Positions 3,510 through 16,163 are shown, numbered from the stretch's first letter. The stretch is 64,000 nt of DNA from an uncultured bacterium (GCA_964562525.1 CAZLTL010000012.1:15985-79984), one strand, 5' to 3'. The notes: generated by a model from the letters alone, not told the origin. Numbers and translations: made by a program.

Positions 3510-4733
3510 TTACTCGGGAAGTAAACCTGTTTTGCAAACTTCGGCGTATTTTTTCGCGCTTTCGCGAACCGTGCGTTTCTGAGTTTTGTAGTCCATTTCA
3601 ATCAAACCGAAACGCGGACCATAGCCATGCGCCCATTCAAAGTTATCAAGCAGCGACCAATAAAGATATCCCACAACCTTCGCGCCTTTTTGCATCGCGT
3701 CATGAATGGTCTTAAGGTGAATCTGAATAAATTGCCAGCGCTGACTGTCTTCCGCTGCGCAGATTCCGTTCTCGGTAATCATAATAGGAATATCATATTT
3801 CCGAAGCTGCAAAAGAAGCTCATGCAAACCTTGCGGATAAATGTCCCAACCCAAAAAGTTTTTATCGGATGGAAAATCAGGATGGCCCGCGCTGCACTCC
3901 ATCACAAACTTTTTCGGGCACCAGCTTTTCAAATCAACGAGCTGCCGCGAATAATAATTAACTCCGATAAAATCAAGCGTGTTCGCATTTTGAAGCGCAT
4001 TTAAAATTCTCAAGTTAAACCAATAATTGCGAAATTTTGCCGAAACACGATTGATCCATTTTTTATTGCAAGCCACAACGGATGTCACGTGCTGGGAAAT
4101 ACTAATCGCCGGTTTTTTCAAACCCTGCTCTTGATAAATTTTATTCATCGCGCGGTAAGCCGCGATATGCCCGGCAATCATATTGTGTTCAACTGCCCAA
4201 GCCGCTAAGAAAGATGTTTTCTGGGGAGGCCACCAGCCCAAAATAAAGGAATGTGAAATATAAATCGTGGGTTCGTTGATCGTGATCCAATAATGAACAT
4301 GCTTCGCGAGGCCTTTGACGACAAATTCTGTGTAACGCTGAAAAAGAGCAACGACTTTTTTGTTCTCCCAGCCGCCTTTTTCGCTCAGCCAAATCGGATT
4401 GGTAAAATGATGCAAAGTCACCATCGGTTCAATGCCGCGCGCGCGCAAAGCTAAAATAACATCAATATAGTGCTTGAGCTCTTTTTCAGAAAACTCGCCT
4501 TCTTTAGGCTCAATGCGCGCCCACTCAATCGACAAGCGATGCGCTTTGTGGTTCATCTCTTTGGCAAGGTCAAAATCCTGCTCATAAACCTGATAGTGAT
4601 TGCAAGCAACCCCTGAAGGCTCTTTGCCGGCCTTGATTTCCCATGGCCACCAATCGGAATTGGAATTACCGCCCTCAACCTGATAAGCAGCCGCAGCCGC
4701 GCCCCAAATAAAATCTTTCGGAAACTGAATCAT
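3510..4733 (-). CDS. glycoside hydrolase family 1 beta-glucosidase
   Basis: 407 aa. Has the GH1 acid/base motif TINEPTIY and the nucleophile motif ITENG (MITENGICAAED). The N-terminus MIQFPKDFIWGAAAAAYQVEG is typical of GH1. Confidence 0.85.
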   Translation of the reverse strand: MIQFPKDFIWGAAAAAYQVEGGNSNSDWWPWEIKAGKEPSGVACNHYQVYEQDFDLAKEMNHKAHRLSIEWARIEPKEGEFSEKELKHYIDVILALRARGIEPMVTLHHFTNPIWLSEKGGWENKKVVALFQRYTEFVVKGLAKHVHYWITINEPTIYISHSFILGWWPPQKTSFLAAWAVEHNMIAGHIAAYRAMNKIYQEQGLKKPAISISQHVTSVVACNKKWINRVSAKFRNYWFNLRILNALQNANTLDFIGVNYYSRQLVDLKSWCPKKFVMECSAGHPDFPSDKNFLGWDIYPQGLHELLLQLRKYDIPIMITENGICAAEDSQRWQFIQIHLKTIHDAMQKGAKVVGYLYWSLLDNFEWAHGYGPRFGLIEMDYKTQKRTVRESAKKYAEVCKTGLLPE

Positions 4734-4795
4734 ATCTAAAGCCCTTTAAAATATAAAATATCGAGAAATAAGACGATTAAGCCGAAAATAATGGC

Positions 4796-6082
4796 ATGAG
4801 ATTTCTATTTAATCAAATCAAAAAAACATACGGCCTAGCAGAGCCCGAAGAACGCAAAGCTGTCCTTAATAATTTTGCCTTTCTTTCAGCATTACAGATC
4901 ATTACTTATCTTTTACCAATCTTTATCTTGCCCTATTTGTTCCGGGTGATCGGCCCCGGAAAATTCGGTCTTTTAGCCTTCGCTCAGGCTTTTACTCAGT
5001 ACTTTGTTATTTTAACCGACTACGGCTTTAATGTTTCAGCCACCAAGGAAATCTCGGTCCGGCATCAAGAGCCGGAACTATTGCACCGAACTTTTCACGC
5101 GGTTATGACAATCAAAGTCGCTCTCTTAGCTTTGAGCGCGGTCATATTCTGCGCGGCCGTTTATTGGGTTCCTCGATTTCACGCGGATTGGCAAGTTTAC
5201 GCGCTCAGCTTTGGAGCGGTGATTGGCAACACCCTTTTCCCGCATTGGTTTTTTCAAGGCATTGAAAAAATGAAGCCTATCGCGGATCTTAATATTTTTG
5301 GGGGAGTTTTAAGCTCCGTGCTTATTTTTGCGCTTGTTAAAAATCCGGATGATTATTTATTGGTTCCGCTGATTCAATCAGCGGTTTTACTCACAACCGG
5401 ATTATGGGGGCAATATCTTGTTCTGCAAATCTTGCAAGTCCCCTTCCGTTTTCCGAGCCTCAAAGATTTAAAAAAAGAACTGGTCGCGGGTTGGCATGTT
5501 TTTATTTCAATTGTCGCGATCAATGCCTACACCACCACCCGCATTTTCGCGGTTGGGCTATTCACAAACAATGTGATTACCGGATTTTATTCCGCCGGAG
5601 AAAAAATCGCGGGGCTTTTTCAAACCTTTCCGCTTGTTCCTTTTTCACAGGCGCTCTTTCCAAGGCTCATTAAAATTTTCCACAAAAGCAAAACGCGAGC
5701 TTTTGATTTCATGGAACGCATTCAGCGCATCACTGTTACGGTCTCCTTGATTTGCCTGCCATTGGGATTCATCTTCGCGCCTGCCATTGTGCGCATTCTC
5801 TGCGGAGATTATTTTACGGAAGTCATTTGGACACTACGGCTGATCTTGATTTCGGTTCTTTGTGTGGGCTCAAACGCCTTCCGCGTGCAGTTTCTTCTTA
5901 TCGCAGGGAGGCCGGATCTTTACGCTAAAATTCACATCCTGGCAGCGGGATTTGGGCTGCCGCTTCTTATCGCGCTGACCATTACGCATTCGTATTTGGG
6001 CGCCGCGCTCTCAACCATCGCGATCGAACTCGGCATCTTTTTACTGACGCTCATCGCAATTAAAAAAGTTCATCTCAAGTAA
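4796..6082 (+). CDS. polysaccharide biosynthesis / Wzx-like flippase family membrane protein (MOP/PST superfamily)
   Basis: 428 aa polytopic membrane protein. The N-terminal region resembles oligosaccharide flippases (..NFAFLSALQIITYLLPIFILPYLFRVIGPGKFGLL..). Confidence 0.55.
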   Translation: MRFLFNQIKKTYGLAEPEERKAVLNNFAFLSALQIITYLLPIFILPYLFRVIGPGKFGLLAFAQAFTQYFVILTDYGFNVSATKEISVRHQEPELLHRTFHAVMTIKVALLALSAVIFCAAVYWVPRFHADWQVYALSFGAVIGNTLFPHWFFQGIEKMKPIADLNIFGGVLSSVLIFALVKNPDDYLLVPLIQSAVLLTTGLWGQYLVLQILQVPFRFPSLKDLKKELVAGWHVFISIVAINAYTTTRIFAVGLFTNNVITGFYSAGEKIAGLFQTFPLVPFSQALFPRLIKIFHKSKTRAFDFMERIQRITVTVSLICLPLGFIFAPAIVRILCGDYFTEVIWTLRLILISVLCVGSNAFRVQFLLIAGRPDLYAKIHILAAGFGLPLLIALTITHSYLGAALSTIAIELGIFLLTLIAIKKVHLK

Positions 6083-6854
6083 GTGTTTCCCTAAGCCATT
6101 TCAGAATCGGCTCAACAGTTTCTTTTTTGTTTTTTAGCAAAAGATACTCCGCGTGGGGGCCGCCCTCAATCATCACCAAACTCTTCTTACTCTTCGCGGC
6201 TTTAAACAACTCCGATGAGTGATTGGGTTTAATCAGCCAATCTTTGGTCCCATGGATAAAAAGGATGGGGGCTTTTACTTTTTCAACGCAAACAATCGGT
6301 TTATCTTTTTTCAGCCAAAAAGGCCCGGGACGAACGCCTTTGCCATAACGCCCTTCGCCGACCAAGTTGTAAAAAATATCCTGATCGGGATCCAACTCCC
6401 AAAAATGATATTCGATTTTCTCAAACTCCGTGGGAGGGCTGATCGCGACCAAGCTTTGAATTTTTTCCGAGCGTGACGCCGTAATAATACTGGTCGCGGC
6501 ACCCAGAGAAAATCCGATCAATCCGATTGCGGCATAGTTTCGTTCCATTAAATCAATCACGGCTTCCAAATCGAGATATTCTTTCGTGGTCCAATAAAAC
6601 AACCCCGGGCTTTGCCCATGACCGCGGAAATCAAGTATGGCCACGTCATATTCATCCAAAAGCGAGTCCGCCAAAACCTTGATCAGCACGGAGGACTTGC
6701 TGTTAAAAAAACCATGCGCAATGATAATGACTTTTCTGTGGCCATTTTGATAATGATCCAAATAAACTTTTTGCCCGTCCGCGCTTAAAACACTCAGATT
6801 TTGAACTTTGCATTTCTTAGTCATGCCATTGTGCCTCGGGCGCTTTCTTCTCAA
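6075..6854 (-). CDS. alpha/beta-fold hydrolase
   Basis: 259 aa. Has the GXSXG nucleophile elbow (IGFSLGA) and length and layout typical of alpha/beta hydrolases. Confidence 0.7.
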   Translation of the reverse strand: MRRKRPRHNGMTKKCKVQNLSVLSADGQKVYLDHYQNGHRKVIIIAHGFFNSKSSVLIKVLADSLLDEYDVAILDFRGHGQSPGLFYWTTKEYLDLEAVIDLMERNYAAIGLIGFSLGAATSIITASRSEKIQSLVAISPPTEFEKIEYHFWELDPDQDIFYNLVGEGRYGKGVRPGPFWLKKDKPIVCVEKVKAPILFIHGTKDWLIKPNHSSELFKAAKSKKSLVMIEGGPHAEYLLLKNKKETVEPILKWLRETLT

Positions 6855-8052
6855 TTAATTTCTGTATCGTCATTTGCAAATCGTCTGTCAGCTTCCGGCA
6901 AGCGTCTTTTGAGTCTTTAACATACGCCCCCATCAACGGCCCTAAATCCACAAGTTCCCCCGTTTGAATCCGGACCGCGCGGCGGCCCAAGGGCTTAGGC
7001 CGGGGTTTTCCCAATATCTCACGCTCAAGTTTCATCACACTTTCAGCCAATCTTTCCGACGAGGGATTTTTCTCATGATACTGCGGCGCCCAGCTGGCAA
7101 ACCAAACCGTACGCTTCAAAGCGCCTAAATCACGGCGAAGCTCCCTTTGACGGTCACTGCTCATTTCCGCTCCATTATCCATGCGCTCGCGAATCTGTGC
7201 GATTAATCGGTAGGCGCGATCCATCAGCTGTTGTGAGGGTCGCCCCCAAATTTGAGCGTATTTTCTCTCCAGCTGGCTCAAAACCGAAGTCCGCCACGCA
7301 CTGATATCCTCCGAAATTTTACTCCAGTTCGACGCAATATTACGTGACGTCGTTTTCATGTCATACCGCTCCACGACATGCTTCATCAAAAGCGTGAGTC
7401 GCGTCTGAATTTCCTGCGTGTGCGGTTTAAGATTAATTTTTTTCTCAAGGTGGCGAAGCCGCTGCTTCAAAGCCCCGCGAATCGAATCGGAGTAAGAGTA
7501 TTTCAACGCGACAGGTAAAATATAAACTGCAGCACCGGGATTCAGCCGACGTAAATCCTGAAGCGCTTCAAACCCCATACGCACCGCACCGGTTTTAAAA
7601 GGCTGAACATGGTCGTTTAAATAATAAATCTCTCCCTCTGGGAACATGACCAACGCTTCTTTTCCATTTTTAATCGTCTGAGAGGCTTGCTCGCGCGCTT
7701 CCGCGTCCGACGCGCCGCGTTCAACGGAGAAACAACCCACCCGCGTCATCCAAAACCCCGCAAATCCCCGCATCTCCTCAAAGGCTTCGGCATTCACCAT
7801 AAACCGGAATCTTTTTTGAGCGCGCCGCGCGAATTCCATCATGACGCGGATATCCATTTCATCCGCATGATTAGACACAATGATCAAATGGGTTCCCGAC
7901 GGAATGGATTTTAGCTGATCAAGGGTATCAGGCTCTAAAACAAGCTCGCAACGACATGCCAACTCAATGGCGTTGTAAATGCCATAAGGAATAATCGACC
8001 AAAGCTGCGGATTTGCGGAATAAAAACGCGACATAGCCAACCCTTTTTTCAT
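6817..8052 (-). CDS. lysophospholipid acyltransferase (PlsC family) with C-terminal extension
   Basis: 411 aa. Has the HX4D motif (VSNHADEMD) and the FPEGE motif of glycerolipid acyltransferases. Confidence 0.65.
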   Translation of the reverse strand: MKKGLAMSRFYSANPQLWSIIPYGIYNAIELACRCELVLEPDTLDQLKSIPSGTHLIIVSNHADEMDIRVMMEFARRAQKRFRFMVNAEAFEEMRGFAGFWMTRVGCFSVERGASDAEAREQASQTIKNGKEALVMFPEGEIYYLNDHVQPFKTGAVRMGFEALQDLRRLNPGAAVYILPVALKYSYSDSIRGALKQRLRHLEKKINLKPHTQEIQTRLTLLMKHVVERYDMKTTSRNIASNWSKISEDISAWRTSVLSQLERKYAQIWGRPSQQLMDRAYRLIAQIRERMDNGAEMSSDRQRELRRDLGALKRTVWFASWAPQYHEKNPSSERLAESVMKLEREILGKPRPKPLGRRAVRIQTGELVDLGPLMGAYVKDSKDACRKLTDDLQMTIQKLIEKKAPEAQWHD

Positions 8053-8211
8053 TCTGAAAAGAAAGGCCGCTATTCTAGCAGAAAATCATCTCACGTAACT
8101 GTGGTGACAAACATCAAAGCGATCTGATTAGATCGCAAAAAAAGAAATGAAAAAGCCATTATCTTATGGTTAGTTTTTCATGCGGCTTATGAAAAAATGA
8201 TGTTCCGAAAT

Positions 8212-10002
8212 TTAGCGGCGCCAAACTTTCCAGTCGGTTCGCTCGCCACGGTTATTCCAAAGCTGGTCTTCCTTATATATCCGTTGGCCGGCCGCGTTGT
8301 AACGGATAATCGTTTGGTTATAAATCTGCCCATTAGCATGCCACCCACGCTCCCTGAAGTACTCCAATTTTCCGCTAATGCGATAATCATACTTAAGGTC
8401 ATAACTCAAAACCCCGTATCGATACTGAACCTTGTAGATTGAACGGACTGCTCCATTACCGTAGTAGCTTCTTGTTTCTGTAAAGTTATACTTAGCTTTA
8501 CCGGCGGCATCATAGGTCACGTCATTAAAATAGGTCATTCGCTCCGCGCCGTCAAAACGGGTCTGAGATACGCTGGTTAATTTACCTGCAGGCGAATAAC
8601 TAAAGGTTTTATCAAATTCCTTGTTGCCGTTCGCATGATAAAGAATGGATGAAACCGTGGACCTGCCGTTCACATAAACAATGGTCTGCTTGGCAGATAC
8701 TTTTGTTGTTCCATTAGCGGCATACACCGCTTCATCGAGCCAGCGGTAAGAGAGCTTCCCATTCGGAAAATAATGATAGTCGCTAAAATGGGTCACAGCC
8801 CCCTGCGCATTGTAATGAGCGGAAGAAACCCGGCTGACCGGACCGCCGGGAATATAGTAATCGGTGCGCACATCGCGGACTTTGACGTCACCGGTAAAAA
8901 AGATACTCGTAACAGCCGTACTCTCTATTTTGGTTTGCACATGCCCTGCCAGCGTTTTTCCGTCAGAGCCATAAGCAAGCTCATCGATCCAAGTTTCAAC
9001 TAAAACTCCCGCCGGGCTGTATGTTTTTGCCTCAAAACGGGTTATCGATTCCTGAGCATTAAATTGGGAACTGATGATTTTAACAACTGCGCCATTCGTG
9101 CCATACTCTGTCCTGACTTCGCCGGTTTTAAAACTTCCGTCATAAGAGATAACCGTTTTCGCGTCCGGCACTGTTTTGGTTTGAGTTCGCGTAATAACCG
9201 TTGTGCCATTTGAAGCATAAACCACCTCTTCTTTCCAGCCATCGACGACCGTACCGTTAGCATCATACTGATCATCCAAAAAAACCGTGATCGAGCCTGC
9301 AAAGTTAAACTGAATATCCATTTGGCGACGAACATTGGACGCGGAATAATAGTAAGTCGTCGTTTCCTGAGTCACTTTACCTGACACGTCTTTTAAAACG
9401 CGAACACTCGTACCATCCGTCAAAACAACTTCAACCTCGGATCCCTGCGCGTCAACCGCGCTGTTTAAAACACTTATCTGAGCCCCGTTAAATGATTCAG
9501 GAACTTCTTTTGTCAACGCTTGAAGATCGAGCAGATCGAGAAAAGTTAGCTTTTTGTTTTCATGCTGAATGACCATTTTCTTTCCATCCGCGCTGAAATT
9601 GCCGGAAGCAATGCGCTCAATATCCGGAAGCTCGAGAGAAAAAACTAATCCGTTAACATCGATCAATTCCAATTTCGTTGCGGCTCCTGTTCCGGAAATC
9701 ACCACATCCAGATTTGATCCTTGCCGCACAAGCGTTCCTTCACATTGCGAGACAAAAGAACATGTGCCCGCTTGAAACGGCGCGCTCGCCGTCGCGGACG
9801 ACAAAGGGCTTTCATCAAAAAAATCAGCCGGGGCATTTTCTTCCGCGGAAGAAGACGCTGAAGTAAAAGGGTCAGCCGTGGGCTGCTCTACCGTAGAAGC
9901 CGCAGGCAATAAAGCACTTTGCCCAAAAGCAGTCATGGGCAAAAGCTGGGCCGCCAATAAAACCAATATAATTGCGATATATATTTTCTTTTGAGTTTTC
10001 AT
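8212..10002 (-). CDS. secreted YD-repeat-like beta-rich protein of unknown function
   Basis: The ORF-track start (10023) is a TTG. The in-frame ATG at 10000-10002 has a GAGGA Shine-Dalgarno 7 nt upstream and yields the signal peptide MKTQKKIYIAIILVLLAAQLLPMTAFGQ. The body carries recurring Y-x-x-x-G / YD-like repeats (AYGSDGKTLAG, VYAANGTTKV, RYNAAGQRIYKED, YDLKYDYRISGKLEY). Confidence 0.5.
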   Translation of the reverse strand: MKTQKKIYIAIILVLLAAQLLPMTAFGQSALLPAASTVEQPTADPFTSASSSAEENAPADFFDESPLSSATASAPFQAGTCSFVSQCEGTLVRQGSNLDVVISGTGAATKLELIDVNGLVFSLELPDIERIASGNFSADGKKMVIQHENKKLTFLDLLDLQALTKEVPESFNGAQISVLNSAVDAQGSEVEVVLTDGTSVRVLKDVSGKVTQETTTYYYSASNVRRQMDIQFNFAGSITVFLDDQYDANGTVVDGWKEEVVYASNGTTVITRTQTKTVPDAKTVISYDGSFKTGEVRTEYGTNGAVVKIISSQFNAQESITRFEAKTYSPAGVLVETWIDELAYGSDGKTLAGHVQTKIESTAVTSIFFTGDVKVRDVRTDYYIPGGPVSRVSSAHYNAQGAVTHFSDYHYFPNGKLSYRWLDEAVYAANGTTKVSAKQTIVYVNGRSTVSSILYHANGNKEFDKTFSYSPAGKLTSVSQTRFDGAERMTYFNDVTYDAAGKAKYNFTETRSYYGNGAVRSIYKVQYRYGVLSYDLKYDYRISGKLEYFRERGWHANGQIYNQTIIRYNAAGQRIYKEDQLWNNRGERTDWKVWRR

Positions 10003-10030
10003 GCCTTTTCCTCTACAGCTCAAGTTATTT

Positions 10031-10050
10031 AAAACATATTAATATGTTTT
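10031..10050. promoter_or_regulatory. perfect 20-bp palindrome AAAACATATTAATATGTTTT in the promoter region of the secreted YD-like gene
   Basis: Read directly from the sequence, about 30 nt upstream of the start codon at 10002. Likely an operator. It lies in a 370-nt AT-rich gap. Confidence 0.4.
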
Positions 10051-10180
10051 AATTATGTAATTAATATAACCATTCCTTGTCAAGAATCAAGGGGAGTATC
10101 GGAAATTGAGGGTATTATATCAATGTAAATCTTTTATTCAAAATGAGTTAAGAGTTATTAAATATTTTTAAAATTTAGCT

Positions 10181-10266
10181 AAAAAAAAGAGGCTTTTGGC
10201 GGCTAAGCAAAACGCCCCAAGGTAAAACCTCGAGGCTTCTTTTCATATGCTCCCCCCGTGTGGGAC
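10181..10266 (-). repeat. degenerate copy of the tRNA-Asn 3' end (about 20 nt) plus downstream terminator-like hairpins
   Basis: The minus strand reads GTCCCACACGGGGGGAGCATATGAAAAGAAGCCTCGAGGTTTT.., followed by a hairpin and a T8 run. About 45 nt are near-identical to the copy at 15666..15726 and to the acceptor/T-stem 3' end of the intact tRNA at 15889. Confidence 0.6.
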
Positions 10267-10396
10267 GTGTTTTGACACCCATCTGAGACCTTCAAAATAG
10301 AGCTTTCTTCCATTCGTATTCTTTTTGAAAATACCAACATTGCTTTGGTGACATAAAATCAATGCTTTTACAGGTCAGGTTCGAAATAGTATTAAA

Positions 10397-11176
10397 TCAG
10401 CCAATTTGTATCGTAAGCATAGAAATAGAGCCGCCGTCAAATCCCTCAATGGGAAAGCTAACTGTTTCATCCTGATCTTGTGCGGCAATCACATAAAGTA
10501 AGGGCAAATAATGCTCAGGCGTGGGCGCTGCAAGCAATGATTCTTTCCCCAACTTTTCATAGTTAATTAGCGTTTCGTGATCATTTGATTGCAGGCACCG
10601 GCGAACTGTTCCCTCAAAGCTTAGCGCCCATTCAAAGGGCTCAACATTGTGATTTCCCCAAGCATAGGTATGCAGATTATGAACAACATTGCCGCTGCCC
10701 ATGATGAGCACTCCTTCGCTGCGAAGTGCCGCAAGCTTTTTTCCCAACTCATAGTGAAATTGAGGCGGTTTTGTTTCATCGATGCTGAGCTGGACAACCG
10801 GAATATCCGCTTCCGGAAAAACGCGACATAGTACCGACCATGTTCCATGGTCCAACCCCCAGCTTTCATCAAGTTTTACCGGAGAAGGTGAAAGTAAACT
10901 CTGGACCCGTCTTGCGAGATCTAAGCTTCCTGGCGCGGGATATTGAACTTGGTAAAGCGCTTCAGGAAATCCGCCGAAATCGTGAATCGTACGCGGATTA
11001 AGATTTGCCGTCACGGCAGTGAAAGGAAGATACCAGTGCGCAGAAACACAAAGAATTGCTTTGGGGCGGGGAATATTTTTTCCGATACGCGACCACTCCT
11101 CAGTATAGTTATTCTGCACAATGGCGTTCATTGGATTTCCGTGCCCAAAAAAAATGACCGGCATGCGTTTTTTCAT
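10397..11176 (-). CDS. class III extradiol dioxygenase (YgiD/DOPA 4,5-dioxygenase family)
   Basis: 259 aa. The N-terminus MPVIFFGHGNPMNA..AILCVSAHW.. and overall length match the LigB-type YgiD family. Confidence 0.7.
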   Translation of the reverse strand: MKKRMPVIFFGHGNPMNAIVQNNYTEEWSRIGKNIPRPKAILCVSAHWYLPFTAVTANLNPRTIHDFGGFPEALYQVQYPAPGSLDLARRVQSLLSPSPVKLDESWGLDHGTWSVLCRVFPEADIPVVQLSIDETKPPQFHYELGKKLAALRSEGVLIMGSGNVVHNLHTYAWGNHNVEPFEWALSFEGTVRRCLQSNDHETLINYEKLGKESLLAAPTPEHYLPLLYVIAAQDQDETVSFPIEGFDGGSISMLTIQIG

Positions 11177-11188
11177 GTTAGATCCGAT

Positions 11189-12691
11189 TTATTGCATTGG
11201 ATTACTTGTGTTTTTCTTTTCGTCTTTAGCGGCACTTAGAATTGCCTGAATCTTTTTTGAGTTTGCCTGATTCGTAAGCGTAAGCACAACGTCACCGCCT
11301 TCGAGCACGGTTCTGCCGTTTGCGACAATGAATTTTTCGCCTCTTCCGATCATCGTAATTAAGCAGTCAGGCGGAAGATTCAGCTGATAGATTGGTTTAC
11401 CCACAGCCGACGAATGGTACGGAACCATAAGTTCGACAAGATCAGCGTCCATCCCTTCCATCTGCTGAAATTCCAGCGGAGAATTTTTTTTAGACTGCAA
11501 GGGCGCGTCGACTTTTAAAATTTTTGCAATGAAAGGAATCGTGGTTCCCTGCAAAAGCACCGACGAAAGCACGATAAAAAATACCATGTTAAAAATCGGC
11601 TCCGACTGAGGGATTTTTTCGATCAGCACAAAGGTCGCTAGAATAATGGGCGCCGCGCCGCGCAGTCCCACCCAAGAAATCATCAGCTTCTCAGACAGTT
11701 TGAACTTGAATGGAATCAGGCATAAAAAAACACTCAAAGGCCGTGCGACAAACATGAGAAACAAGGAAACTAAAACACCCGGCACAATCACGGAGATTAA
11801 ATGGCTCGGAAACACAAGAAGGCCCAGCGTTAAAAACATTGCGATTTGCATGAGCCAGGCAAGCCCGTCATGAAACCGAAGAAGATTCTTTTTATTAAAA
11901 ATATTCTCGCGTGATAATAAAAGGCCGGCAATATAGACAGCTAAAAATCCGTTACCTTCAAAGAAGGCCGTCACTCCATAAGTGAACAAAACCAAAGAAA
12001 GAGAAAGAACGGGATAGAGGCCTTCGTTTTCCAGGTTTAATCGATTCATGGTGAGGGCGATCACGCGGCTCATTAGATATCCGAAGAAGATGCCTAAAAG
12101 CATTTGTTTTGCGAAGAAGAAACTGAGCGACGCAAGATCCAGATGGGCGCTTTCAATCACCGAGAGTGTGCCAATCGTCAAAAAAATAGCCATCGGGTCA
12201 TTGCTTCCCGATTCGAGCTCAAGAAGCGGTTTGAGCCTTTTCTTCAGGCTTATATTTCTCGAACGCAGAATTGAAAAAACAGCTGCCGCATCCGTCGAAG
12301 AAACGACCGCCCCCAGAAGAAATCCTTCGAGCGGAGAAAATTTGAGCGCGTAAACCGCAAATAAACCCAAGCAGACAGCCGTAATCAAAGTGCCGAGCAT
12401 CGACAGCGTAACAGCCGGCGCCATAACCGGGCGCACTGACTGCCACTCCGTATCAAAGCCGCCCGCAAAAAGGATGTAAACAAGCGCTAAGATTCCCAAA
12501 GACTTTGCCACCGAGGCATTATCGAAATAGATGCCCCCCAGCCCTTCCGAACCGGCAAGCATACCTACGCCCAGATAAAGCAAAAGCGCGGGTAAGCCGA
12601 ATCTTCCCAGCAGCTTATTGGAAATAATACTCAATAAAAAAAGTGCGGAGCCGGCAAAAAAAACAAAATCAATATTTACGTTTTCAAACAT
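11189..12691 (-). CDS. K+/H+ antiporter, CPA1 family (NhaP2/CvrA-like) with C-terminal TrkA-C domain
   Basis: 500 aa. The first roughly 390 aa form a polytopic Na+/H+-exchanger-family domain (..ELESGSNDPMAIFLT..). A soluble RCK_C-like tail follows. Confidence 0.8.
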   Translation of the reverse strand: MFENVNIDFVFFAGSALFLLSIISNKLLGRFGLPALLLYLGVGMLAGSEGLGGIYFDNASVAKSLGILALVYILFAGGFDTEWQSVRPVMAPAVTLSMLGTLITAVCLGLFAVYALKFSPLEGFLLGAVVSSTDAAAVFSILRSRNISLKKRLKPLLELESGSNDPMAIFLTIGTLSVIESAHLDLASLSFFFAKQMLLGIFFGYLMSRVIALTMNRLNLENEGLYPVLSLSLVLFTYGVTAFFEGNGFLAVYIAGLLLSRENIFNKKNLLRFHDGLAWLMQIAMFLTLGLLVFPSHLISVIVPGVLVSLFLMFVARPLSVFLCLIPFKFKLSEKLMISWVGLRGAAPIILATFVLIEKIPQSEPIFNMVFFIVLSSVLLQGTTIPFIAKILKVDAPLQSKKNSPLEFQQMEGMDADLVELMVPYHSSAVGKPIYQLNLPPDCLITMIGRGEKFIVANGRTVLEGGDVVLTLTNQANSKKIQAILSAAKDEKKNTSNPMQ

Positions 12692-12708
12692 AAATCACCT
12701 TACACCCT

Positions 12709-13626
12709 CTAGGCTGCCATTTTTTCCAAAAGCGGCCGCCCTTCGGAAGCCGCCGGACTTAACTCTCCGTGTTTCAATGCAAATACTGAACCGCGCACTT
12801 GCTCGAGTATTTTTTCCGCGGTATTACCTATAAGCATACTCGCAATTCCTGTTCTGGCCGCGTTTCCCATGACAATCACATCAATACCAAGCCGGGCAGC
12901 AACGATGGGAATCATCTGCTGTGCGTTTCCTTCATGAATGTGCATCCGGTATTTTGTGAAATCCTGAGCTTTTAAAAAAGCCTCTAATTCGAGACGCTTG
13001 CCGGCCTTCGCCTGCTTCACAAATTTTTTGTGATCCGATGAAGGAAGCAACGCGCGTACCGATCCCCAAACATCACATACGTGAAGAACATGCAATTCAC
13101 TTTTACCAAAACGGGCTAAAGCACCGGCTGATTCCATAATCCGCTGGTTCAGCACAACCTGAGTCGGATCAGATATGTTTAAATCGACCGCCGCGAGAAT
13201 TTTTTTTAAGTGTTTATGGTTTTTAAGCATCCACACAGGCGCGGGACACTCCCGCATTAATTTTACCACCGATGCTCTGGAGTGCCCCTCATTAAAAATG
13301 ATGACGAGGTCATGTTTGCAGCGGAGCACTTCCGCAATCATGCTGCCGGTTTCATTTCCCACAACCGTCTTAGCCTTCAGCAACACACCTTCTTTGGCAA
13401 AACATTCGAGCTGGCGGCGCAGCTCACTCCACGCCTCATGCACCAATCGAAACCGCAACGCCAATTCGGGAGGACCCCCTTGAGCGCCGGAGCCGTGCCA
13501 TGGAATCACGCGCAGCACAGTCACTTTTCCCTGACTGGCTTTTGCCAAACCGAGCGCGATTTTCACAGCCTTCATGCCTTCAGGCAAAGGGCTCCATAAC
13601 ACTAAAATATTTTTAAAATTTGTCAT
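12709..13626 (-). CDS. tandem-domain universal stress protein (UspE-like)
   Basis: 305 aa. Two Usp-like halves each end in the G-x-x-G-(9)-G-S/N ATP-binding-type motif (VMGNAARTGIASMLIGNTAEKIL). Confidence 0.7.
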   Translation of the reverse strand: MTNFKNILVLWSPLPEGMKAVKIALGLAKASQGKVTVLRVIPWHGSGAQGGPPELALRFRLVHEAWSELRRQLECFAKEGVLLKAKTVVGNETGSMIAEVLRCKHDLVIIFNEGHSRASVVKLMRECPAPVWMLKNHKHLKKILAAVDLNISDPTQVVLNQRIMESAGALARFGKSELHVLHVCDVWGSVRALLPSSDHKKFVKQAKAGKRLELEAFLKAQDFTKYRMHIHEGNAQQMIPIVAARLGIDVIVMGNAARTGIASMLIGNTAEKILEQVRGSVFALKHGELSPAASEGRPLLEKMAA

Positions 13627-13649
13627 AAATCACCTCTTGAAAAAGCCGC

Positions 13650-14066
13650 TTATAAATGAAAGGCGCCGTCCGCTTCGGGCTGATAAAGAACTTCTTCTAT
13701 TTGCAGTCGCCGAATGCCCGCAGGCACGGGCCACTCCACAACATCGCTCACACGATATCCGAGAAGCGCGGTTCCTATCGGTGCCAACACGGAAACGCGG
13801 CTTTTTTCAGGGTCAGCATTTCCGGGATAAACAATCCAATACGTAAATGTTTCTTTTGTTTCCAAATCCTTAAATTTGACGCGCGTATTCATGGTCACCA
13901 CGTCCGAAGGAACCATTTCAGGCTTCACGATTTCTGCTTTATTAAGCTCCGCGCGAAGCTGGCTAAGATAGGCGCTGTGATGCCCGTAAGAATTAACTCC
14001 CGATGCAATCAGCGCCTGAAGTTTTTCCATATCCTGAGTTGTTATATAAAGTTTTTTTGTGTCCAT
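13650..14066 (-). CDS. rnk: regulator of nucleoside diphosphate kinase Rnk (GreA/GreB C-terminal domain family)
   Basis: 138 aa, matching Rnk in size. Carries a GreA/B-like FKBP-type C-terminal region (..VYPGNADPEKSRVSVLAPIGTALLGYRVSDVVEW..). Confidence 0.7.
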   Translation of the reverse strand: MDTKKLYITTQDMEKLQALIASGVNSYGHHSAYLSQLRAELNKAEIVKPEMVPSDVVTMNTRVKFKDLETKETFTYWIVYPGNADPEKSRVSVLAPIGTALLGYRVSDVVEWPVPAGIRRLQIEEVLYQPEADGAFHL

Positions 14067-14086
14067 GGTGCACCTCTTGTTGTCTT

Positions 14087-14602
14087 TTAAGCTACCGCCG
14101 CCATAAACGCGCCGTGCTCTCCGTTTAAAAGTTCATTAAATATTTCCAGAATTCTTTCCGACTCTTCCGGAATCACATTTCGAATGACCCTTTTCAGCGG
14201 CCTAAAACTCCTGAGAAACTCATGATCAAACCGGGTCAAGTTTCGGCCGGACGCGGACAAAGTTTTAAGCATGGCCTCATAAGCAAGGGCGACAAAAAAA
14301 GCGTCGTCTAAATAGCCGAACAACTTGCCTTTTTCGTCCGGCAAAATGTCCATCGGATGATAAAAATAAGTCAGCGTAAAACTGACCAGCTTTTTTAAAT
14401 CCGGCGACACCTCCCTGCGATTGCAGTGCTTGTAGGATTCAGCCAGCAGTTTAGGCATCAGAAGAATAATGTTTCTGAGCCTTTGTTCCAGAATCAAAGT
14501 CGCCCTTTTGCCGATTCTTCTTCGCAGCTGCACGCGAAAGTCATCTTCCGCGCCCACTGCTACATGCTTTAAATGGTCTTCGATAATCATAAGCATATGC
14601 AC
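14087..14602 (-). CDS. DUF1232 (YkvA-like) domain protein
   Basis: 171 aa. Carries the DUF1232 signature ..YFYHPMDILPDEKGKLFGYLDDAFFVALAY... Confidence 0.5.
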   Translation of the reverse strand: MHMLMIIEDHLKHVAVGAEDDFRVQLRRRIGKRATLILEQRLRNIILLMPKLLAESYKHCNRREVSPDLKKLVSFTLTYFYHPMDILPDEKGKLFGYLDDAFFVALAYEAMLKTLSASGRNLTRFDHEFLRSFRPLKRVIRNVIPEESERILEIFNELLNGEHGAFMAAVA

Positions 14603-14686
14603 CTCCTGTTCCTCATGAGGTAATTATGGCCTCGCATCGACAGTAAATAAAATATATAATGATTACGAATACTATAAAGGAAAGTT

Positions 14687-15580
14687 ATGATACCTTTTAA
14701 TTTCCACCATCTTTATTACTTCTATGTGGTCGCGAATGAAGGCTCTTTTACCCGCGCCGCTAAAATCCTGCGTGTGTCGCAGCCCGCGCTCAGCGCGCAA
14801 CTTAAGCAGTTTCAAGCTTATTGGGATATGGAACTCTTTACCCGCGACAGTAAACAAGTACGCCTGACCGAGCACGGTAACTTAATTTTTAATTACGCGA
14901 AAGCAATTTTTGATTTGGGACATGAGCTGAATGACAGCTTGATAAGCCGTAATCTCAGAGGGAAATTGAAACTGCGGCTGGGTGTTTCCGTGGCCGTGCC
15001 ACGCGCCATCGTTCAAGCGCTTTTAAAATATATCTATATTGATTTTCCGGAAATTCATCTTGTTTTAAAGCAAGAGCCCATCGATAACATGATTGAGTCT
15101 TTGATGGCGCACAAACTTGATCTTGTAATGAATGATTTCGCATATGACACTGAAATCCAAGAGGGCCTGCAAAACCACCTCGTCGCCACTATCCCCATGG
15201 TTTTTTGCGCCGGAAAATCAATCGCACAAAAATATAAAAACATTCCGAAAGATTTGGACGGAGCTCCTCTGATTCTGCCCACCTCGCCCGACCGCACTTA
15301 TCACGCACTTCAAAACTTTATCCACATGAACAAGGTAAGGCCGGACATTATCGCGGAAGTTCAAGATCTGGAACAAGTACGCGTGCTCGTCGCTATGGGA
15401 AAAGGCGTCGGGCTTTTAAATTCATATGCCGTGGCACACTCGCCAGAACGCACCAAACTGGTTATTCTTAAAGATACCTCAAGGCAAAAAATCCACGATA
15501 CGATTTATCTTATTAAGCGTGAGCGTAAAATTTCACACCCTGTAATAGATCGCGTCATCGAAAGTTTCAAAATCATCTAG
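14687..15580 (+). CDS. LysR-family transcriptional regulator (NhaR-like subfamily)
   Basis: 297 aa. The N-terminal helix-turn-helix (..HLYYFYVVANEGSFTRAAKILRVSQPALSAQLKQFQ..) resembles the NhaR HLYYF motif. It is divergent from the antiporter/Usp/Rnk gene block. Confidence 0.8.
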   Translation: MIPFNFHHLYYFYVVANEGSFTRAAKILRVSQPALSAQLKQFQAYWDMELFTRDSKQVRLTEHGNLIFNYAKAIFDLGHELNDSLISRNLRGKLKLRLGVSVAVPRAIVQALLKYIYIDFPEIHLVLKQEPIDNMIESLMAHKLDLVMNDFAYDTEIQEGLQNHLVATIPMVFCAGKSIAQKYKNIPKDLDGAPLILPTSPDRTYHALQNFIHMNKVRPDIIAEVQDLEQVRVLVAMGKGVGLLNSYAVAHSPERTKLVILKDTSRQKIHDTIYLIKRERKISHPVIDRVIESFKII

Positions 15581-15627
15581 CAATTTCGACTTAAACGATC
15601 CGGCATGCACCTTCCTTCTTTGCGACA

Positions 15628-15726
15628 TCGTCTCGCTTCGCTCCCACTTGGGTTTAGGACAGAATGAAAAAAGCCCCGAGGATAAACCTCGAGGCTTCTT
15701 TTCATATGCTCCCCCGCGTGGGATCC
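15628..15726 (-). repeat. tandem partial duplicate of the tRNA-Asn 3' end plus its downstream flank and terminator (period about 187 bp)
   Basis: The unit cgtctcgcttcgNtNccacNttgg ... aaaaaagcc-hairpin-tttt ... atgctcccccgcgtgggatc occurs at 15628-15726 and again at 15815-15905. The second copy is fused to the intact tRNA. The first copy contains the terminator hairpin GCCTCGAGG..CCTCGGGGC followed by T6 on the minus strand. Confidence 0.65.
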
Positions 15727-15843
15727 CTTCCGCTTTTACGAAAAAAGCTCCAGGCCCCTCGGCGGCTTCCGACCATCTAAATTATTATTTTAGAATGGTT
15801 TCGTTCCTGCGGCGCCGTCTCGCTTCGATTCCACATTGGAAGA

Positions 15844-15877
15844 AAATAAAAAAGCCGCAGGTATAAATACCTACGGC
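15844..15877 (-). terminator. rho-independent terminator of the tRNA-Asn gene
   Basis: Minus strand reads GCCGTAGGTATTTATACCTGCGGC followed by TTTTTTTATTTT, immediately 3' of the tRNA. Confidence 0.7.
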
Positions 15878-15888
15878 CTTTTTTAATG

Positions 15889-16163
15889 CTCCCCCGCGTG
15901 GGATCGAACCACGGACACGGTGATTACTTTCTGACTTCAGTTGCCTGAAGAGTCGGACTTTATCTTTACCCATCTGTTTCTAGATTAGGGTAGTGGGTGT
16001 AGAGTCTCTGCACTTGCCCGTTCGTTTTCACGAACTGCTAGCTCAGGATTGCCCTATTACTAGGGTTTCCCTGAATTAGCCCACTTATTCACTCACACAT
16101 TACTGCGTGAGGCTGCTAATTAAAGTACACAGTCACCTGCTCTACCAGCTGAGCTACAGGGGA
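15889..16163 (-). tRNA. tRNA-Asn(GUU) interrupted in the anticodon loop by a 202-nt group I intron
   Basis: The 5' exon (16163..16129) reads UCCCCUG-UA-GCUC-AGCUGGUA-GAGC-A-GGUGA-CUGU. The 3' exon (15926..15889) reads UAA-UCACC-GUGUC-CGUGG-UUCGAUC-CCACG-CGGGGGA-G. Spliced, these give a canonical cloverleaf: 7-bp acceptor stem with U1-A72 and G73, 8-nt D-loop, 5-bp anticodon stem GGUGA/UCACC, loop CUGUUAA, 5-nt variable loop, and T-loop UUCGAUC. It is near-identical in layout to E. coli tRNA-Asn. Confidence 0.8.
15927..16128 (-). ncRNA. group I (self-splicing) intron, trnL(UAA)-intron-like core
   Basis: It is inserted after U35. The 5' exon ends in U and the intron ends in G (..CAGAAAG|UAA). 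P1 can pair exon CUGU with intron GCAG, and P10 can pair exon UAAU with intron AUUA just upstream. The core segment AUUCAGGGAAACCCUAGUAAUAGGGCAAUCCUGAGCUAGCAG closely matches the conserved region UUCAGAGAAACCCUGGAAUUAAAAAUGGGCAAUCCUGAGCCAA of cyanobacterial/chloroplast trnL introns. It contains no ORF. Confidence 0.7.

What the first reader, a model, noticed from the sequence alone, without database searches (positions are those of the whole stretch)
10181..15905. Decayed direct repeats of the tRNA-Asn 3' end and terminator bracket a 5.4 kb integrase-less stress module
Three copies of the tRNA 3' end are present: one in the intact tRNA, one about 190 bp downstream (15706-15726, inside a 187-bp tandem unit that also duplicates the flank cgtctcgcttcg..ccac.ttgg and a terminator), and one 5.6 kb away (10244-10266). 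The two distal copies additionally share an about 45-nt terminator segment (ATGAAAAGAAGCCTCGAGGTTT). Repeats of a tRNA 3' end are the classic scar of site-specific integration (attL/attR). The bracketed segment carries a NhaR-like LysR regulator, DUF1232, Rnk, tandem Usp, a K+/H+ antiporter and a DOPA-dioxygenase, but no integrase. It is bordered at 10024-10180 by an unusually AT-rich gap. This could be a degraded genomic islet, or repeated local duplications at a tRNA hotspot.
Basis: seen in the sequence. Interest (0 to 1): 0.55.

Follow-up and report, generated by a model that had tools for sequence, protein, structure and literature searches.

The report
Integrase-less genomic island at tRNA-Asn
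In an uncultivated Omnitrophota bacterium, a stress-gene block lies in a roughly 9.7-kb region next to a tRNA-Asn gene that differs between related genomes and carries leftover copies of the tRNA's last 19 bases; this is an ordinary kind of genomic island that no longer has its own integrase.

Summary
The 19-nt 3' end of tRNA-Asn(GUU), GATCCCACGCGGGGGAGCA, occurs exactly twice (15887-15905 and 15707-15725) and once in decayed form (10248-10266). Copies B and C share a terminator.

Relatives show that the stretch from the tRNA to the stop codon of a Polysacc_synt gene (6083-15886) is a replaceable region.
- Sister lineages with 86-88% nt identity in gltD carry either 2.8 kb of unrelated genes there, or an element longer than 19.6 kb that starts with a large serine recombinase.
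- Two other assemblies carry the same island at 97-100% nt identity, although their flanking genes are only 82-88% identical.

So there is an island, but it is about 9.7 kb, not 5.4 kb. Copy C lies inside it. The 187-bp A/B unit is an older structure, also present in genomes without the island.

No integrase is present and composition is not deviant. The "intact" tRNA is in fact split by a 202-nt group I intron, so ARAGORN finds no tRNA in the window.

This is a new example of a well-known kind. The side observations (polymorphic intron, serine recombinase at a tRNA gene, conserved inverted-repeat unit) are more unusual than the island itself.

The parts
16129..16163 (-). tRNA-Asn(GUU) 5' exon
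   Evidence: Located by exact string match. Spliced with the 3' exon, it is called tRNA-Asn(gtt) by ARAGORN and is 74/74 identical to the L095 gene.
15927..16128 (-). Group I intron of 202 nt with no ORF, inserted between anticodon nucleotides U35 and U36
   Evidence: Rfam RF00028, 82.7 bits, E = 1.6e-19. Boundaries come from comparison with intron-free genes.
15887..15926 (-). tRNA-Asn 3' exon. Its last 19 nt (15887-15905) are core copy A.
15848..15883 (-). Terminator A (hairpin GCCGTAGGTATTTATACCTGCGGC plus a T run), the tRNA's present terminator
   Evidence: Terminator scan, 16 pairs. The hairpin is identical in L091, L106 and L001.
15726..15847 (-). Unit U: an inverted T-arm piece (GTGGAATCGAAGCGAGACG, 15816-15834) followed by two hairpins, ending at the junction GCGGAAGG|core B
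   Evidence: Homologous units are present in L001, L091, L095 and L101. RNAalifold pairs GTGGGATC with the GATCCCAC of core B, and 8 of 34 pairs show compensatory changes.
15707..15725 (-). Core copy B, identical to the tRNA 3' end (19/19)
15629..15706 (-). Terminator B (hairpin 15673-15695) plus a second inverted T-arm piece (15629-15647). It also lies tail to tail with the LysR gene.
   Evidence: Window 15632-15725 is 97.9% identical to L095 7907-8000, the native tRNA end of an island-free relative. A short inner hairpin on the + strand is picked up.
14687..15580 (+). LysR-family regulator; some homologues are named activator of nhaA by their sources
   Evidence: Pfam HTH_1 + LysR_substrate; source names.
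14087..14602 (-). DUF1232 protein, first gene of the minus-strand operon
   Evidence: Pfam PF06803.
13650..14066 (-). Rnk (GreA/GreB-like)
   Evidence: Pfam Rnk_N + GreA_GreB.
12709..13626 (-). Tandem universal stress protein
   Evidence: Pfam Usp, two stretches.
11189..12691 (-). Cation/proton antiporter with a TrkA_C domain
   Evidence: Pfam Na_H_Exchanger + TrkA_C.
10397..11176 (-). LigB-family extradiol dioxygenase, last gene of the operon
   Evidence: Pfam LigB.
10248..10266 (-). Core copy C, decayed (GTCCCACACGGGGGGAGCA)
   Evidence: 3 edits in 18 nt. The sequence is the same in L001.
10209..10247 (-). Terminator C, a B-type hairpin (GCCTCGAGGTTTTACCTTGGGGC, 10214-10236), placed to end the DUF1232-to-LigB operon
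   Evidence: Terminator scan, 10 pairs; 92% identity to B over 48 nt.
10024..10180 (.). AT-rich gap (21.7% GC); probable promoter region of the 603-aa gene
   Evidence: Lowest-GC stretch of the window. Three sigma-70-like sites on the minus strand, not above the number found in shuffles. Palindrome at 10026-10055 (I10).
8212..10023 (-). 603-aa protein with no Pfam match; part of the island
   Evidence: Absent from L091 and L095.
6817..8052 (-). Acyltransferase; part of the island
   Evidence: Pfam. 64% aa identity to the gene next to the Rnk gene in L091.
6075..6854 (-). Alpha/beta hydrolase, the last gene of the island. Its end overlaps the stop codon of Polysacc_synt (6080-6082), which marks the outer island border.
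   Evidence: Pfam. Homology to L095 stops right after the Polysacc_synt stop codon. Identity to L001 rises from 82-85% to 98% or more across 6000-6700.

Best explanation
The last 19 nt of tRNA-Asn(GUU), from the T-loop to the discriminator, act as an attachment core for integrating DNA in this Omnitrophota genus.

Inferred mechanism. An incoming element carries its own copy of the core followed by its own terminator. Integration therefore rebuilds a complete, terminated tRNA gene and pushes the previous core and terminator to the far side of the insert. Repeated integrations, deletions and recombination between the copies have left three cores:
- A, the working end of the tRNA.
- B, a former working end, 98% identical to the native end of island-free relatives.
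- C, older and decayed, whose terminator now ends the DUF1232-Rnk-Usp-antiporter-LigB operon.

The cargo between the tRNA and the Polysacc_synt gene (6083-15886, about 9.7 kb) is a composite island. Its recombinase has been lost, so it cannot move by itself. It has nevertheless been exchanged recently between lineages, either by an integrase acting in trans or by homologous recombination through the conserved flanks.

Shown: the repeats, the variable content, the identity jump, the absence of an integrase, and a recombinase-bearing element at the same tRNA in relatives.
Inferred: that site-specific integration made the repeats, the order of events, and the route of the recent exchange.
For: 1. 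Core copies are exact or nearly exact, and none is expected by chance.
2. In all copies and genomes the repeat starts at the same T-loop position (GG|GATCCC), while the sequences on both sides differ.
   - On the left: the tRNA T-stem, GCGGAAGG, or GACGGAGAG.
   - On the right: at least six different sequences (terminators A, B, B', B'', the L101 type, and the recombinase-element type). All diverge right after GGGGGAGC.
3. Content downstream of the tRNA differs in every lineage sampled.
   - Window, L001 and L106: the LysR island.
   - L094, L095, L096: a SnoaL-type protein, a 298-aa protein, a deaminase and a 133-aa protein, 2.8 kb in all.
   - L097-L100, L103, L104: a 595-aa large serine recombinase (Resolvase + Recombinase + Zn_ribbon_recom), an HTH_17 protein and more than 19.6 kb of cargo.
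   - L102: other genes.
4. Homology between the window and L095 stops exactly at the tRNA on one side and at the Polysacc_synt stop codon on the other.
5. The island is 97-100% nt identical to L106 and 98-100% to L001. By contrast gltD is 88% (L106) and Polysacc_synt 85% (L001). gltD is 98.8% identical in protein, so its differences are synonymous and selection does not explain the contrast.
6. Window 15632-15725 (B, terminator B and the T-arm piece) is 97.9% identical to the native tRNA end of L095, as expected for a displaced former end.
7. Strain L001 has a 78-nt cassette inserted exactly after core B.
8. The signature of a regenerated tRNA gene plus a displaced 3' fragment, with a T-stem-region attachment site, is the published hallmark of tRNA-integrated islands (PMC4383910).
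Against: - No integrase or remnant of one is found in the island or elsewhere in the window: Pfam on all ORFs of 200 aa or more and tblastn with the relatives' serine recombinase.
- No core copy exists at the outer border (6083), where two genes overlap.
- Only core plus terminator (about 58 nt) is shared by C. The sequence on either side of C shows no similarity to the unit next to B.
- The A/B unit is conserved in island-free genomes (L095, L101) and absent in island-bearing L106. At least that repeat is older than, and independent of, this island.
- The LysR-DUF1232-Rnk core also sits at places without a tRNA in more distant Omnitrophota, so the cargo is not intrinsically mobile.
- GC and tetranucleotide content are not deviant.
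- The only recombinase seen at this tRNA is a serine recombinase, a class not known to target tRNA genes. Its far end lies off the contigs, so no direct demonstration exists that integration here duplicates the core.
- No phage or provirus contig carries the core.
- The left identity transition is patchy, which looks more like homologous recombination than a clean site-specific junction.
Confidence: 0.6

Rival explanations
1. No site-specific integration is involved. The 3' end of the tRNA and its terminator were copied locally by slippage, unequal crossing-over or gene conversion, and kept because the copies serve as terminators: C for the LigB operon, B for LysR. The region between the tRNA and Polysacc_synt varies only because homologous recombination through the conserved flanks swaps whatever lies between them.
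For: - No integrase is present.
- B and C share the terminator beyond the tRNA end, which a minimal attachment core would not require.
- Each copy sits where a terminator is useful.
- L001 carries the C-variant hairpin at both ends of the block, which points to gene conversion between copies.
- L106 appears to have lost one unit by recombination between repeats.
- The left identity transition is patchy.
- Composition is native.
Against: - Random duplication would not give the same T-loop start point in independent copies with unrelated left flanks (window B, L095 copy 2, L101 copy 2, C).
- Six or more unrelated sequences abut the same last base of the tRNA in different lineages.
- A recombinase-bearing element occupies exactly this position in relatives.
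- Homology with L095 ends exactly at the tRNA and at a stop codon, not inside flanking genes.
Confidence: 0.25
2. The block is ancestral at this place, and the other lineages lost it when other DNA replaced it. It is then not an insertion into the window's lineage at all, and the repeats are scars of events unrelated to it.
For: - A diverged version of the same arrangement exists in L091: tRNA-Asn with intron, terminator A, a remnant of B, LysR, DUF1232, Rnk, a terminator copy, acyltransferase and hydrolase. It is about 70% nt identical, so the linkage to tRNA-Asn is old.
- The junction GCGGAAGG|GATCCC is shared by the window and L091.
- Composition is native.
Against: - Vertical inheritance cannot give 97-100% identity in the island next to 82-88% identity in both flanks.
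- L091 lacks Usp, the antiporter, LigB and the 603-aa gene, so content has changed even within this lineage of islands.
Confidence: 0.1
3. Assembly artefact: the contigs are chimeras of co-occurring strains joined at the conserved tRNA or repeats, which creates a false mosaic and false adjacency.
For: - All sequences are metagenome assemblies.
- Several contigs end inside the repeat or intron region: L001 within the 3' exon, L091 in the intron ORF, L096 in copy 2.
Against: - The same order is seen in independent assemblies from different sources: gltD-tRNA-island in the window and L106, and island-Polysacc_synt in the window and L001 (NCBI MAGs and Logan).
- The tRNA exons, 35 and 40 nt, are shorter than usual assembly k-mers.
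- The repeats themselves are identical in the window and L001.
Confidence: 0.04

Closest known systems
Genomic islands integrated in tRNA genes (the 'regenerated tDNA plus displaced 3' fragment' signature used by Islander, PMC4383910)
   Same: - A working tRNA gene at one end.
- Direct copies of its 3' part, starting in the T-arm region, further along.
- Strain-variable cargo between them.
- Several fragments at one tRNA, suggesting successive events.
   Different: - No integrase gene, which Islander requires.
- No fragment at the outer border.
- The copies also carry the terminator downstream of the tRNA.
- One repeat unit is conserved across species with no cargo inside.
- Composition is not deviant.
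asn-tRNA islands of Enterobacteria (Yersinia high-pathogenicity island, ICEKp1), flanked by a short repeat of the asn-tRNA 3' end. This comparison rests on my own knowledge; it was not tested here.
   Same: The same isoacceptor is used as a hot spot. A repeat of about 17-19 nt of the tRNA 3' end marks the border. Degenerate, immobile versions are common.
   Different: Those islands carry a P4-type tyrosine integrase next to the tRNA. The phylum and cargo are unrelated, and nothing suggests homology of the elements.
CIMEs (cis-mobilisable elements) and tandem accretion at one attachment site, described for Streptococcus thermophilus ICESt elements. This comparison rests on my own knowledge.
   Same: A gene block bracketed by attachment-site copies (B and C) but without recombination or transfer genes, lying in an array at a site that intact elements also use.
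   Different: No functional partner element is shown to use the same core. Mobilisation in cis is untested. C is decayed (3 edits), so it may no longer be a substrate.
[quoted passage not shown]
   Same: A group I intron in the anticodon loop, with patchy distribution among close relatives and ORF-containing and ORF-less forms. This concerns the tRNA itself, not the repeats.
   Different: The host gene is tRNA-Asn(GUU) in Omnitrophota. Two full-text searches turned up no bacterial case for this isoacceptor. Splicing was not tested.

Membership tests
tRNA-integrated genomic island (Islander definition) | Functional tRNA gene at one end of the island | tested here: met
   After removal of the group I intron the gene is a standard tRNA-Asn(GUU), identical to the intron-free gene of L095. 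That the intron is actually spliced out is assumed, not shown.
tRNA-integrated genomic island (Islander definition) | Displaced fragment of the same tRNA gene, in direct orientation, at the other end | tested here: inconclusive
   Direct 3' fragments B (19/19) and C (3 edits in 18 nt) exist. However, C lies inside the region that varies between genomes, and the outer border at 6083 has no fragment.
tRNA-integrated genomic island (Islander definition) | Tyrosine integrase gene inside the island | tested here: not met
   All island ORFs have other Pfam assignments or none. No recombinase domain is found in any window ORF of 200 aa or more.
tRNA-integrated genomic island (general concept) | Presence/absence or replacement among closely related genomes at the same site | tested here: met
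   L094/L095 carry 2.8 kb of other genes and L097 and its group carry a serine-recombinase element. The window, L001 and L106 carry the island.
tRNA-integrated genomic island (general concept) | History different from the flanks (evidence of horizontal exchange) | tested here: met
   The island is 97-100% nt identical, against 88% for gltD and 85% for Polysacc_synt. GC and tetranucleotide content are not deviant, so the donor was a close relative.
CIME (cis-mobilisable element) | Block flanked by two attachment-site copies and lacking recombination and transfer genes | tested here: met
   B and C bracket 10267-15706, and no recombinase is present.
CIME (cis-mobilisable element) | Excision or transfer when an intact element integrates alongside | not testable with these tools
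   This needs reads showing circular junctions, or an experiment.
Large-serine-recombinase integrative element (seen in relatives only) | Recombinase with Resolvase + Recombinase + zinc-ribbon domains at one end of the insert, next to the attachment site | tested here: met
   L097 11531-13318 has Pfam Resolvase, Recombinase and Zn_ribbon_recom, and is followed by an HTH_17 protein. It is not present in the window.
Large-serine-recombinase integrative element (seen in relatives only) | Second junction at the far end of the element | tested here: inconclusive
   The contigs end more than 19.6 kb into the element without a second core.
Group I intron (Rfam RF00028) | Match to the covariance model above the gathering score, 5' splice site after U, last intron base G | tested here: met
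   82.7 bits against a cut-off of 50. The exon ends ...CTGT and the intron ends ...AAAG. Self-splicing was not tested.

The most novel reading that the evidence does not exclude
The 19-nt tRNA-Asn core may be the chromosomal target of the large serine recombinase family seen at this tRNA in sister genomes. Such elements would rebuild the tRNA end with their own terminator, although serine integrases are not known to target tRNA genes. The conserved 120-nt unit bounded by inverted T-arm pieces would then be their cargo-free footprint or a landing pad. A related reading is that the endonuclease-carrying group I intron in the same tRNA drives co-conversion that drags the adjacent island into intron-free genomes.
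Probability: 0.12. Interest if true: 0.65.

Novelty: new member of a known kind. Interest (0 to 1): 0.4.

Why it matters
This gives a concrete, well-bounded example of a tRNA-linked recombination hot spot in Omnitrophota, a phylum known almost only from metagenomes. It shows that a salt/pH-type stress module is accessory and is exchanged between lineages.

For annotation, it is a warning on two counts. The tRNA is missed by a standard tRNA finder because of its intron. Integrase-based island finders would also miss the island.

The side observations would add more to what is known about mobile DNA than the island does, if followed up: an intron that is present, absent, or carrying an endonuclease gene within one genus, and a serine-recombinase element seated on a tRNA gene.

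Tried and rejected
- Genome-collection scan with gltD. It returned only hits of about 70% identity from other phyla and was useless for synteny.
- Contexts of LysR homologues at 65-67% identity (L085, L086, L089). The LysR-DUF1232-Rnk core is there, but at places without a tRNA. This is too distant to test insertion.
- L090 (LysR next to tRNA-Gln) and L102 (a LysR next to a peroxidase). These are unrelated arrangements, not the same island.
- Far end of the serine-recombinase element. It is not on any contig.
- Viral contig scans for the tRNA half, the core and the recombinase. All were empty.
- Similarity of the sequences around C to unit U or to the flanks of A and B. Not above shuffles.
- Rfam at a permissive threshold on 15560-15900. 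Only chance-level hits.
- Tandem Repeats Finder. It does not report the 187-bp unit.
- GC and tetranucleotide deviation. None for the island; the only outlier is the gltB gene.
- An apparent link between carrying the intron and carrying the island. Rejected because L102 has the intron without the island.


Full report
**What is in the window**

On the minus strand at 16163-15887 lies a tRNA-Asn(GUU) gene. ARAGORN does not find it because a 202-nt group I intron sits between anticodon nucleotides U35 and U36 (Rfam RF00028, 82.7 bits). With the intron removed, the sequence folds as a normal tRNA-Asn and is 74/74 identical to the intron-free gene of a relative.

The last 19 nt of the gene, GATCCCACGCGGGGGAGCA, are here called the core.
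- Copy A is the end of the tRNA itself (15887-15905).
- Copy B is an exact second copy at 15707-15725.
- Copy C is a decayed copy at 10248-10266, with 3 edits.

None of these is expected by chance.

Each copy is followed by a hairpin terminator. Terminators B and C are the same type, with 22 nt exact and 92% identity over 48 nt. Terminator A is a different hairpin. A and B also share a downstream piece, GTGG(A/G)A(T/G)CGAAGCGAGACG, which is an inverted copy of the tRNA's T-loop and stem.

Between B and C lie a LysR regulator on the plus strand and, on the minus strand, a tight operon of DUF1232, Rnk, tandem Usp, a Na_H_Exchanger/TrkA_C antiporter and a LigB dioxygenase. No recombinase is present. 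The one correction is that the tRNA is split by an intron.

**The organism**

Source names of LysR and gltD homologues place the window in Candidatus Omnitrophota. All relatives used below come from metagenome assemblies.

**Relatives**

Close relatives were reached through a DNA pattern scan, the 90% cluster of the adjacent gltD gene and look-ups of their contigs. By gltD nucleotide identity there are three sister lineages at 86-88%: the window; L106; and L094-L100 (within that group, L095 and L097 are 96.8% identical). Two more distant lineages lie at about 80% (L101 and L102).

All have gltB-gltD-tRNA-Asn. What follows the tRNA differs in every lineage:
- Window and L001 (L001 lacks the gltD side): terminator A, unit U, core B, then the LysR block, core C, a 603-aa gene, an acyltransferase and a hydrolase.
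- L106: the same island, but with a single core.
- L094, L095, L096: the native terminator is B-type. It is followed by unit U, a second core, and four unrelated genes (2.8 kb).
- L097, L098, L099, L100, L103, L104: a 595-aa large serine recombinase, convergent with and overlapping the tRNA, then an HTH_17 protein and more than 19.6 kb of cargo including HSP70-like, kinase and FHA genes.
- L101: its own terminator, unit U, a truncated second core, then the contig ends.
- L102: no second core and other genes.

Homology between the window and L095 ends at the tRNA on one side and immediately after the stop codon of the Polysacc_synt gene (window 6082) on the other. The replaceable region in the window is therefore 6083-15886, about 9.7 kb. 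It includes the 603-aa gene, the acyltransferase and the hydrolase. Copy C lies in the middle of it.

**Evidence for recent exchange**

Window against L106:
- The LysR-to-LigB block is 97-100% identical in nucleotides.
- gltD, a few hundred bases away, is 88.0% identical in nucleotides but 98.8% in protein.
- The switch lies at about 15725-15800, that is, at core B and unit U.

Window against L001:
- 6706-15205 is mostly 98-100% identical. One bin, 9206-9705 inside the 603-aa gene, is 94%.
- Polysacc_synt (4706-5705) is 82-85% identical.
- The transition between 6000 and 6700 is patchy.

Synonymous divergence in the flanks is thus roughly ten times that in the island. Selection cannot produce this pattern, so the island has moved between backbones, or been replaced in them, recently. 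GC content and tetranucleotide usage of the island equal the rest of the window. This fits exchange among close relatives rather than a distant donor.

A much more diverged version (about 70% nt) sits at an intron-bearing tRNA-Asn in L091. Its order is terminator A, a remnant of B with the same GCGGAAGG|GATCCC junction, LysR, DUF1232, Rnk, a copy of terminator A, then the acyltransferase/hydrolase. It has no Usp, antiporter, LigB or 603-aa gene. The association of this kind of island with tRNA-Asn is therefore old, and its content has changed over time.

**What the repeats are**

Across all genomes the repeat always begins at the same T-loop position (...GG|GATCCCAC), whatever lies to its left. 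To its right, at least six unrelated sequences abut the same last bases (GGGGGAGC). Strain L001 differs from the window by a 78-nt cassette inserted exactly after core B.

A short conserved core with interchangeable arms on both sides is the pattern expected of an attachment site. A regenerated tRNA gene plus displaced 3' fragments, with a T-stem-region site, is the published signature of tRNA-integrated islands (PMC4383910).

B, its terminator and the following T-arm piece are 97.9% identical to the native tRNA end of island-free L095. B therefore looks like a former working end of the gene. C, carrying the same terminator type, looks like an older one. Its hairpin now stands where the LigB operon needs a terminator.

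**What does not fit a simple attL/attR picture**

- The stretch from terminator A to core B (unit U, about 120 nt) is conserved in the window, L001, L091, L095 and L101, so it is also present in genomes without the island. It is missing in L106, which has the island. It is an old resident of the locus, not the scar of this island's arrival.
- Unit U is bounded by inverted copies of the T-arm piece (GTGGGATC ... GATCCCAC) and contains two hairpins that keep pairing through compensatory changes. Rfam has nothing like it. It could be the fused arms of a cargo-free element or a structured RNA. I cannot tell which.
- The outer island border at 6083 has no core copy, and the sequences next to C resemble nothing next to A or B.
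- The only recombinase seen at this tRNA is a serine recombinase, a class stated not to be known to target tRNA genes. Its far junction is off the contigs. There is therefore no direct demonstration that integration here duplicates the core.
- The window has no recombinase, and no viral contig carries the core.

**Most likely mechanism (confidence about 0.6)**

The tRNA-Asn 3' end is an attachment core. Incoming elements bring core plus terminator, rebuild the gene and displace the earlier end. Accretion, internal deletion and recombination between copies produced A, B and C. Examples of recombination between copies are the loss of one unit in L106 and the C-variant hairpin at both ends of the block in L001.

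The present 9.7-kb island is a composite that has lost its recombinase. Its latest spread may have been by an integrase in trans or simply by homologous recombination through gltD/tRNA and Polysacc_synt. The patchy left transition favours the latter for at least that side.

The cargo is probably an ion/pH/osmotic stress module: an NhaR-type regulator facing an operon with a cation/proton antiporter, Usp and Rnk. This rests on family names only.

**Rivals**

- Local duplication and gene conversion of a tRNA-end/terminator module, with homologous replacement of the region and no site-specific step (about 0.25). This explains the shared terminators and the missing integrase. It does not explain the constant start point of the repeat, or the many unrelated sequences that join at one base.
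- The block is ancestral and was lost elsewhere (about 0.1). This is contradicted by the identity jump.
- Assembly chimeras (about 0.04). This is unlikely because independent assemblies give the same order.

**Comparison with known systems and verdict**

The locus behaves like a tRNA-integrated genomic island and like an integrase-less, att-flanked block (a CIME) in a tandem array. It fails the formal Islander membership test because it has no integrase and no fragment at its outer border. It is best filed as a degraded member of that well-known kind, newly seen in Omnitrophota. Interest is moderate to low for the island itself.

Three side observations are less ordinary:
- A group I intron in tRNA-Asn(GUU). 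It is absent in L094-L101, present without an ORF in the window and L102, and present with a 105-aa HNH-like ORF in L106. L091 appears to carry the same ORF.
- A serine-recombinase element seated on the tRNA gene.
- The conserved inverted-repeat unit U.

Noticed in passing
window 15927-16128 (- strand); L102 11701-11934; L106 2680-3190; L091 4154-4419: tRNA-Asn(GUU) carries a group I intron between U35 and U36, which hides the gene from ARAGORN. The intron is polymorphic within one genus. It is absent in L094-L101, present without an ORF in the window and L102, and present with a 105-aa HNH-like ORF in the P1 loop in L106 (Pfam HNH E = 0.0011, below the cut-off). L091 appears to have the same ORF. 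Two full-text literature searches turned up no bacterial tRNA-Asn case.
   Followed up: partly
L097 11531-13622 (also L098, L099, L100, L103, L104): A 595-aa large serine recombinase plus an HTH_17 (excisionase-like) gene begin an element longer than 19.6 kb exactly at the 3' end of tRNA-Asn. The recombinase ORF reads antisense through the whole tRNA gene. The Islander paper states that serine integrases are not known to target tRNA genes. The far end of the element was not recovered.
   Followed up: partly
window 15726-15847; L095 7965-8099; L101 10815-10949; L091 3957-4075: A roughly 120-nt unit between the tRNA terminator and the second core is conserved in five assemblies. It is bounded by inverted copies of the T-arm piece (GTGGGATC...GATCCCAC) and has two hairpins that keep pairing through compensatory changes. 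There is no Rfam match and its function is unknown.
   Followed up: partly
L101 10260-10690: An 87-aa GIY-YIG nuclease gene lies between gltD and the intron-free tRNA-Asn. It is flanked by direct repeats of about 75 nt that begin with the tRNA's 5' end (TTATTCCCCTGT), as if a second kind of mobile gene uses the 5' side of the same tRNA.
   Followed up: no
window 10024-10180: This is the most AT-rich stretch of the window (21.7% GC). It has sigma-70-like hexamers upstream of the 603-aa gene (not more than shuffles give) and a 15-nt perfect-spacing palindrome at 10026-10055. It is 100% identical in strain L001.
   Followed up: partly
window 22779-24551: There is a second variable spot. Between gltB and the CLC channel gene the window has a 590-aa ORF with no Pfam match, where L096/L097 have an ECF sigma factor, a 121-aa protein and DUF4890.
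   Followed up: no
window 9206-9705 and 6400-6600: Inside the otherwise 98-100% identical island, two patches drop to 94% and 85-88% identity against L001 (in the 603-aa gene and the hydrolase gene). This suggests small recombination tracts within the island.
   Followed up: no
L001 11000-11080 (corresponds to window ~15706): Strain L001 has a 78-nt cassette, with its own terminator hairpin, inserted exactly after core B. Its next hairpin is the C-variant sequence, so the same hairpin stands at both ends of the LysR-LigB block in that strain.
   Followed up: partly
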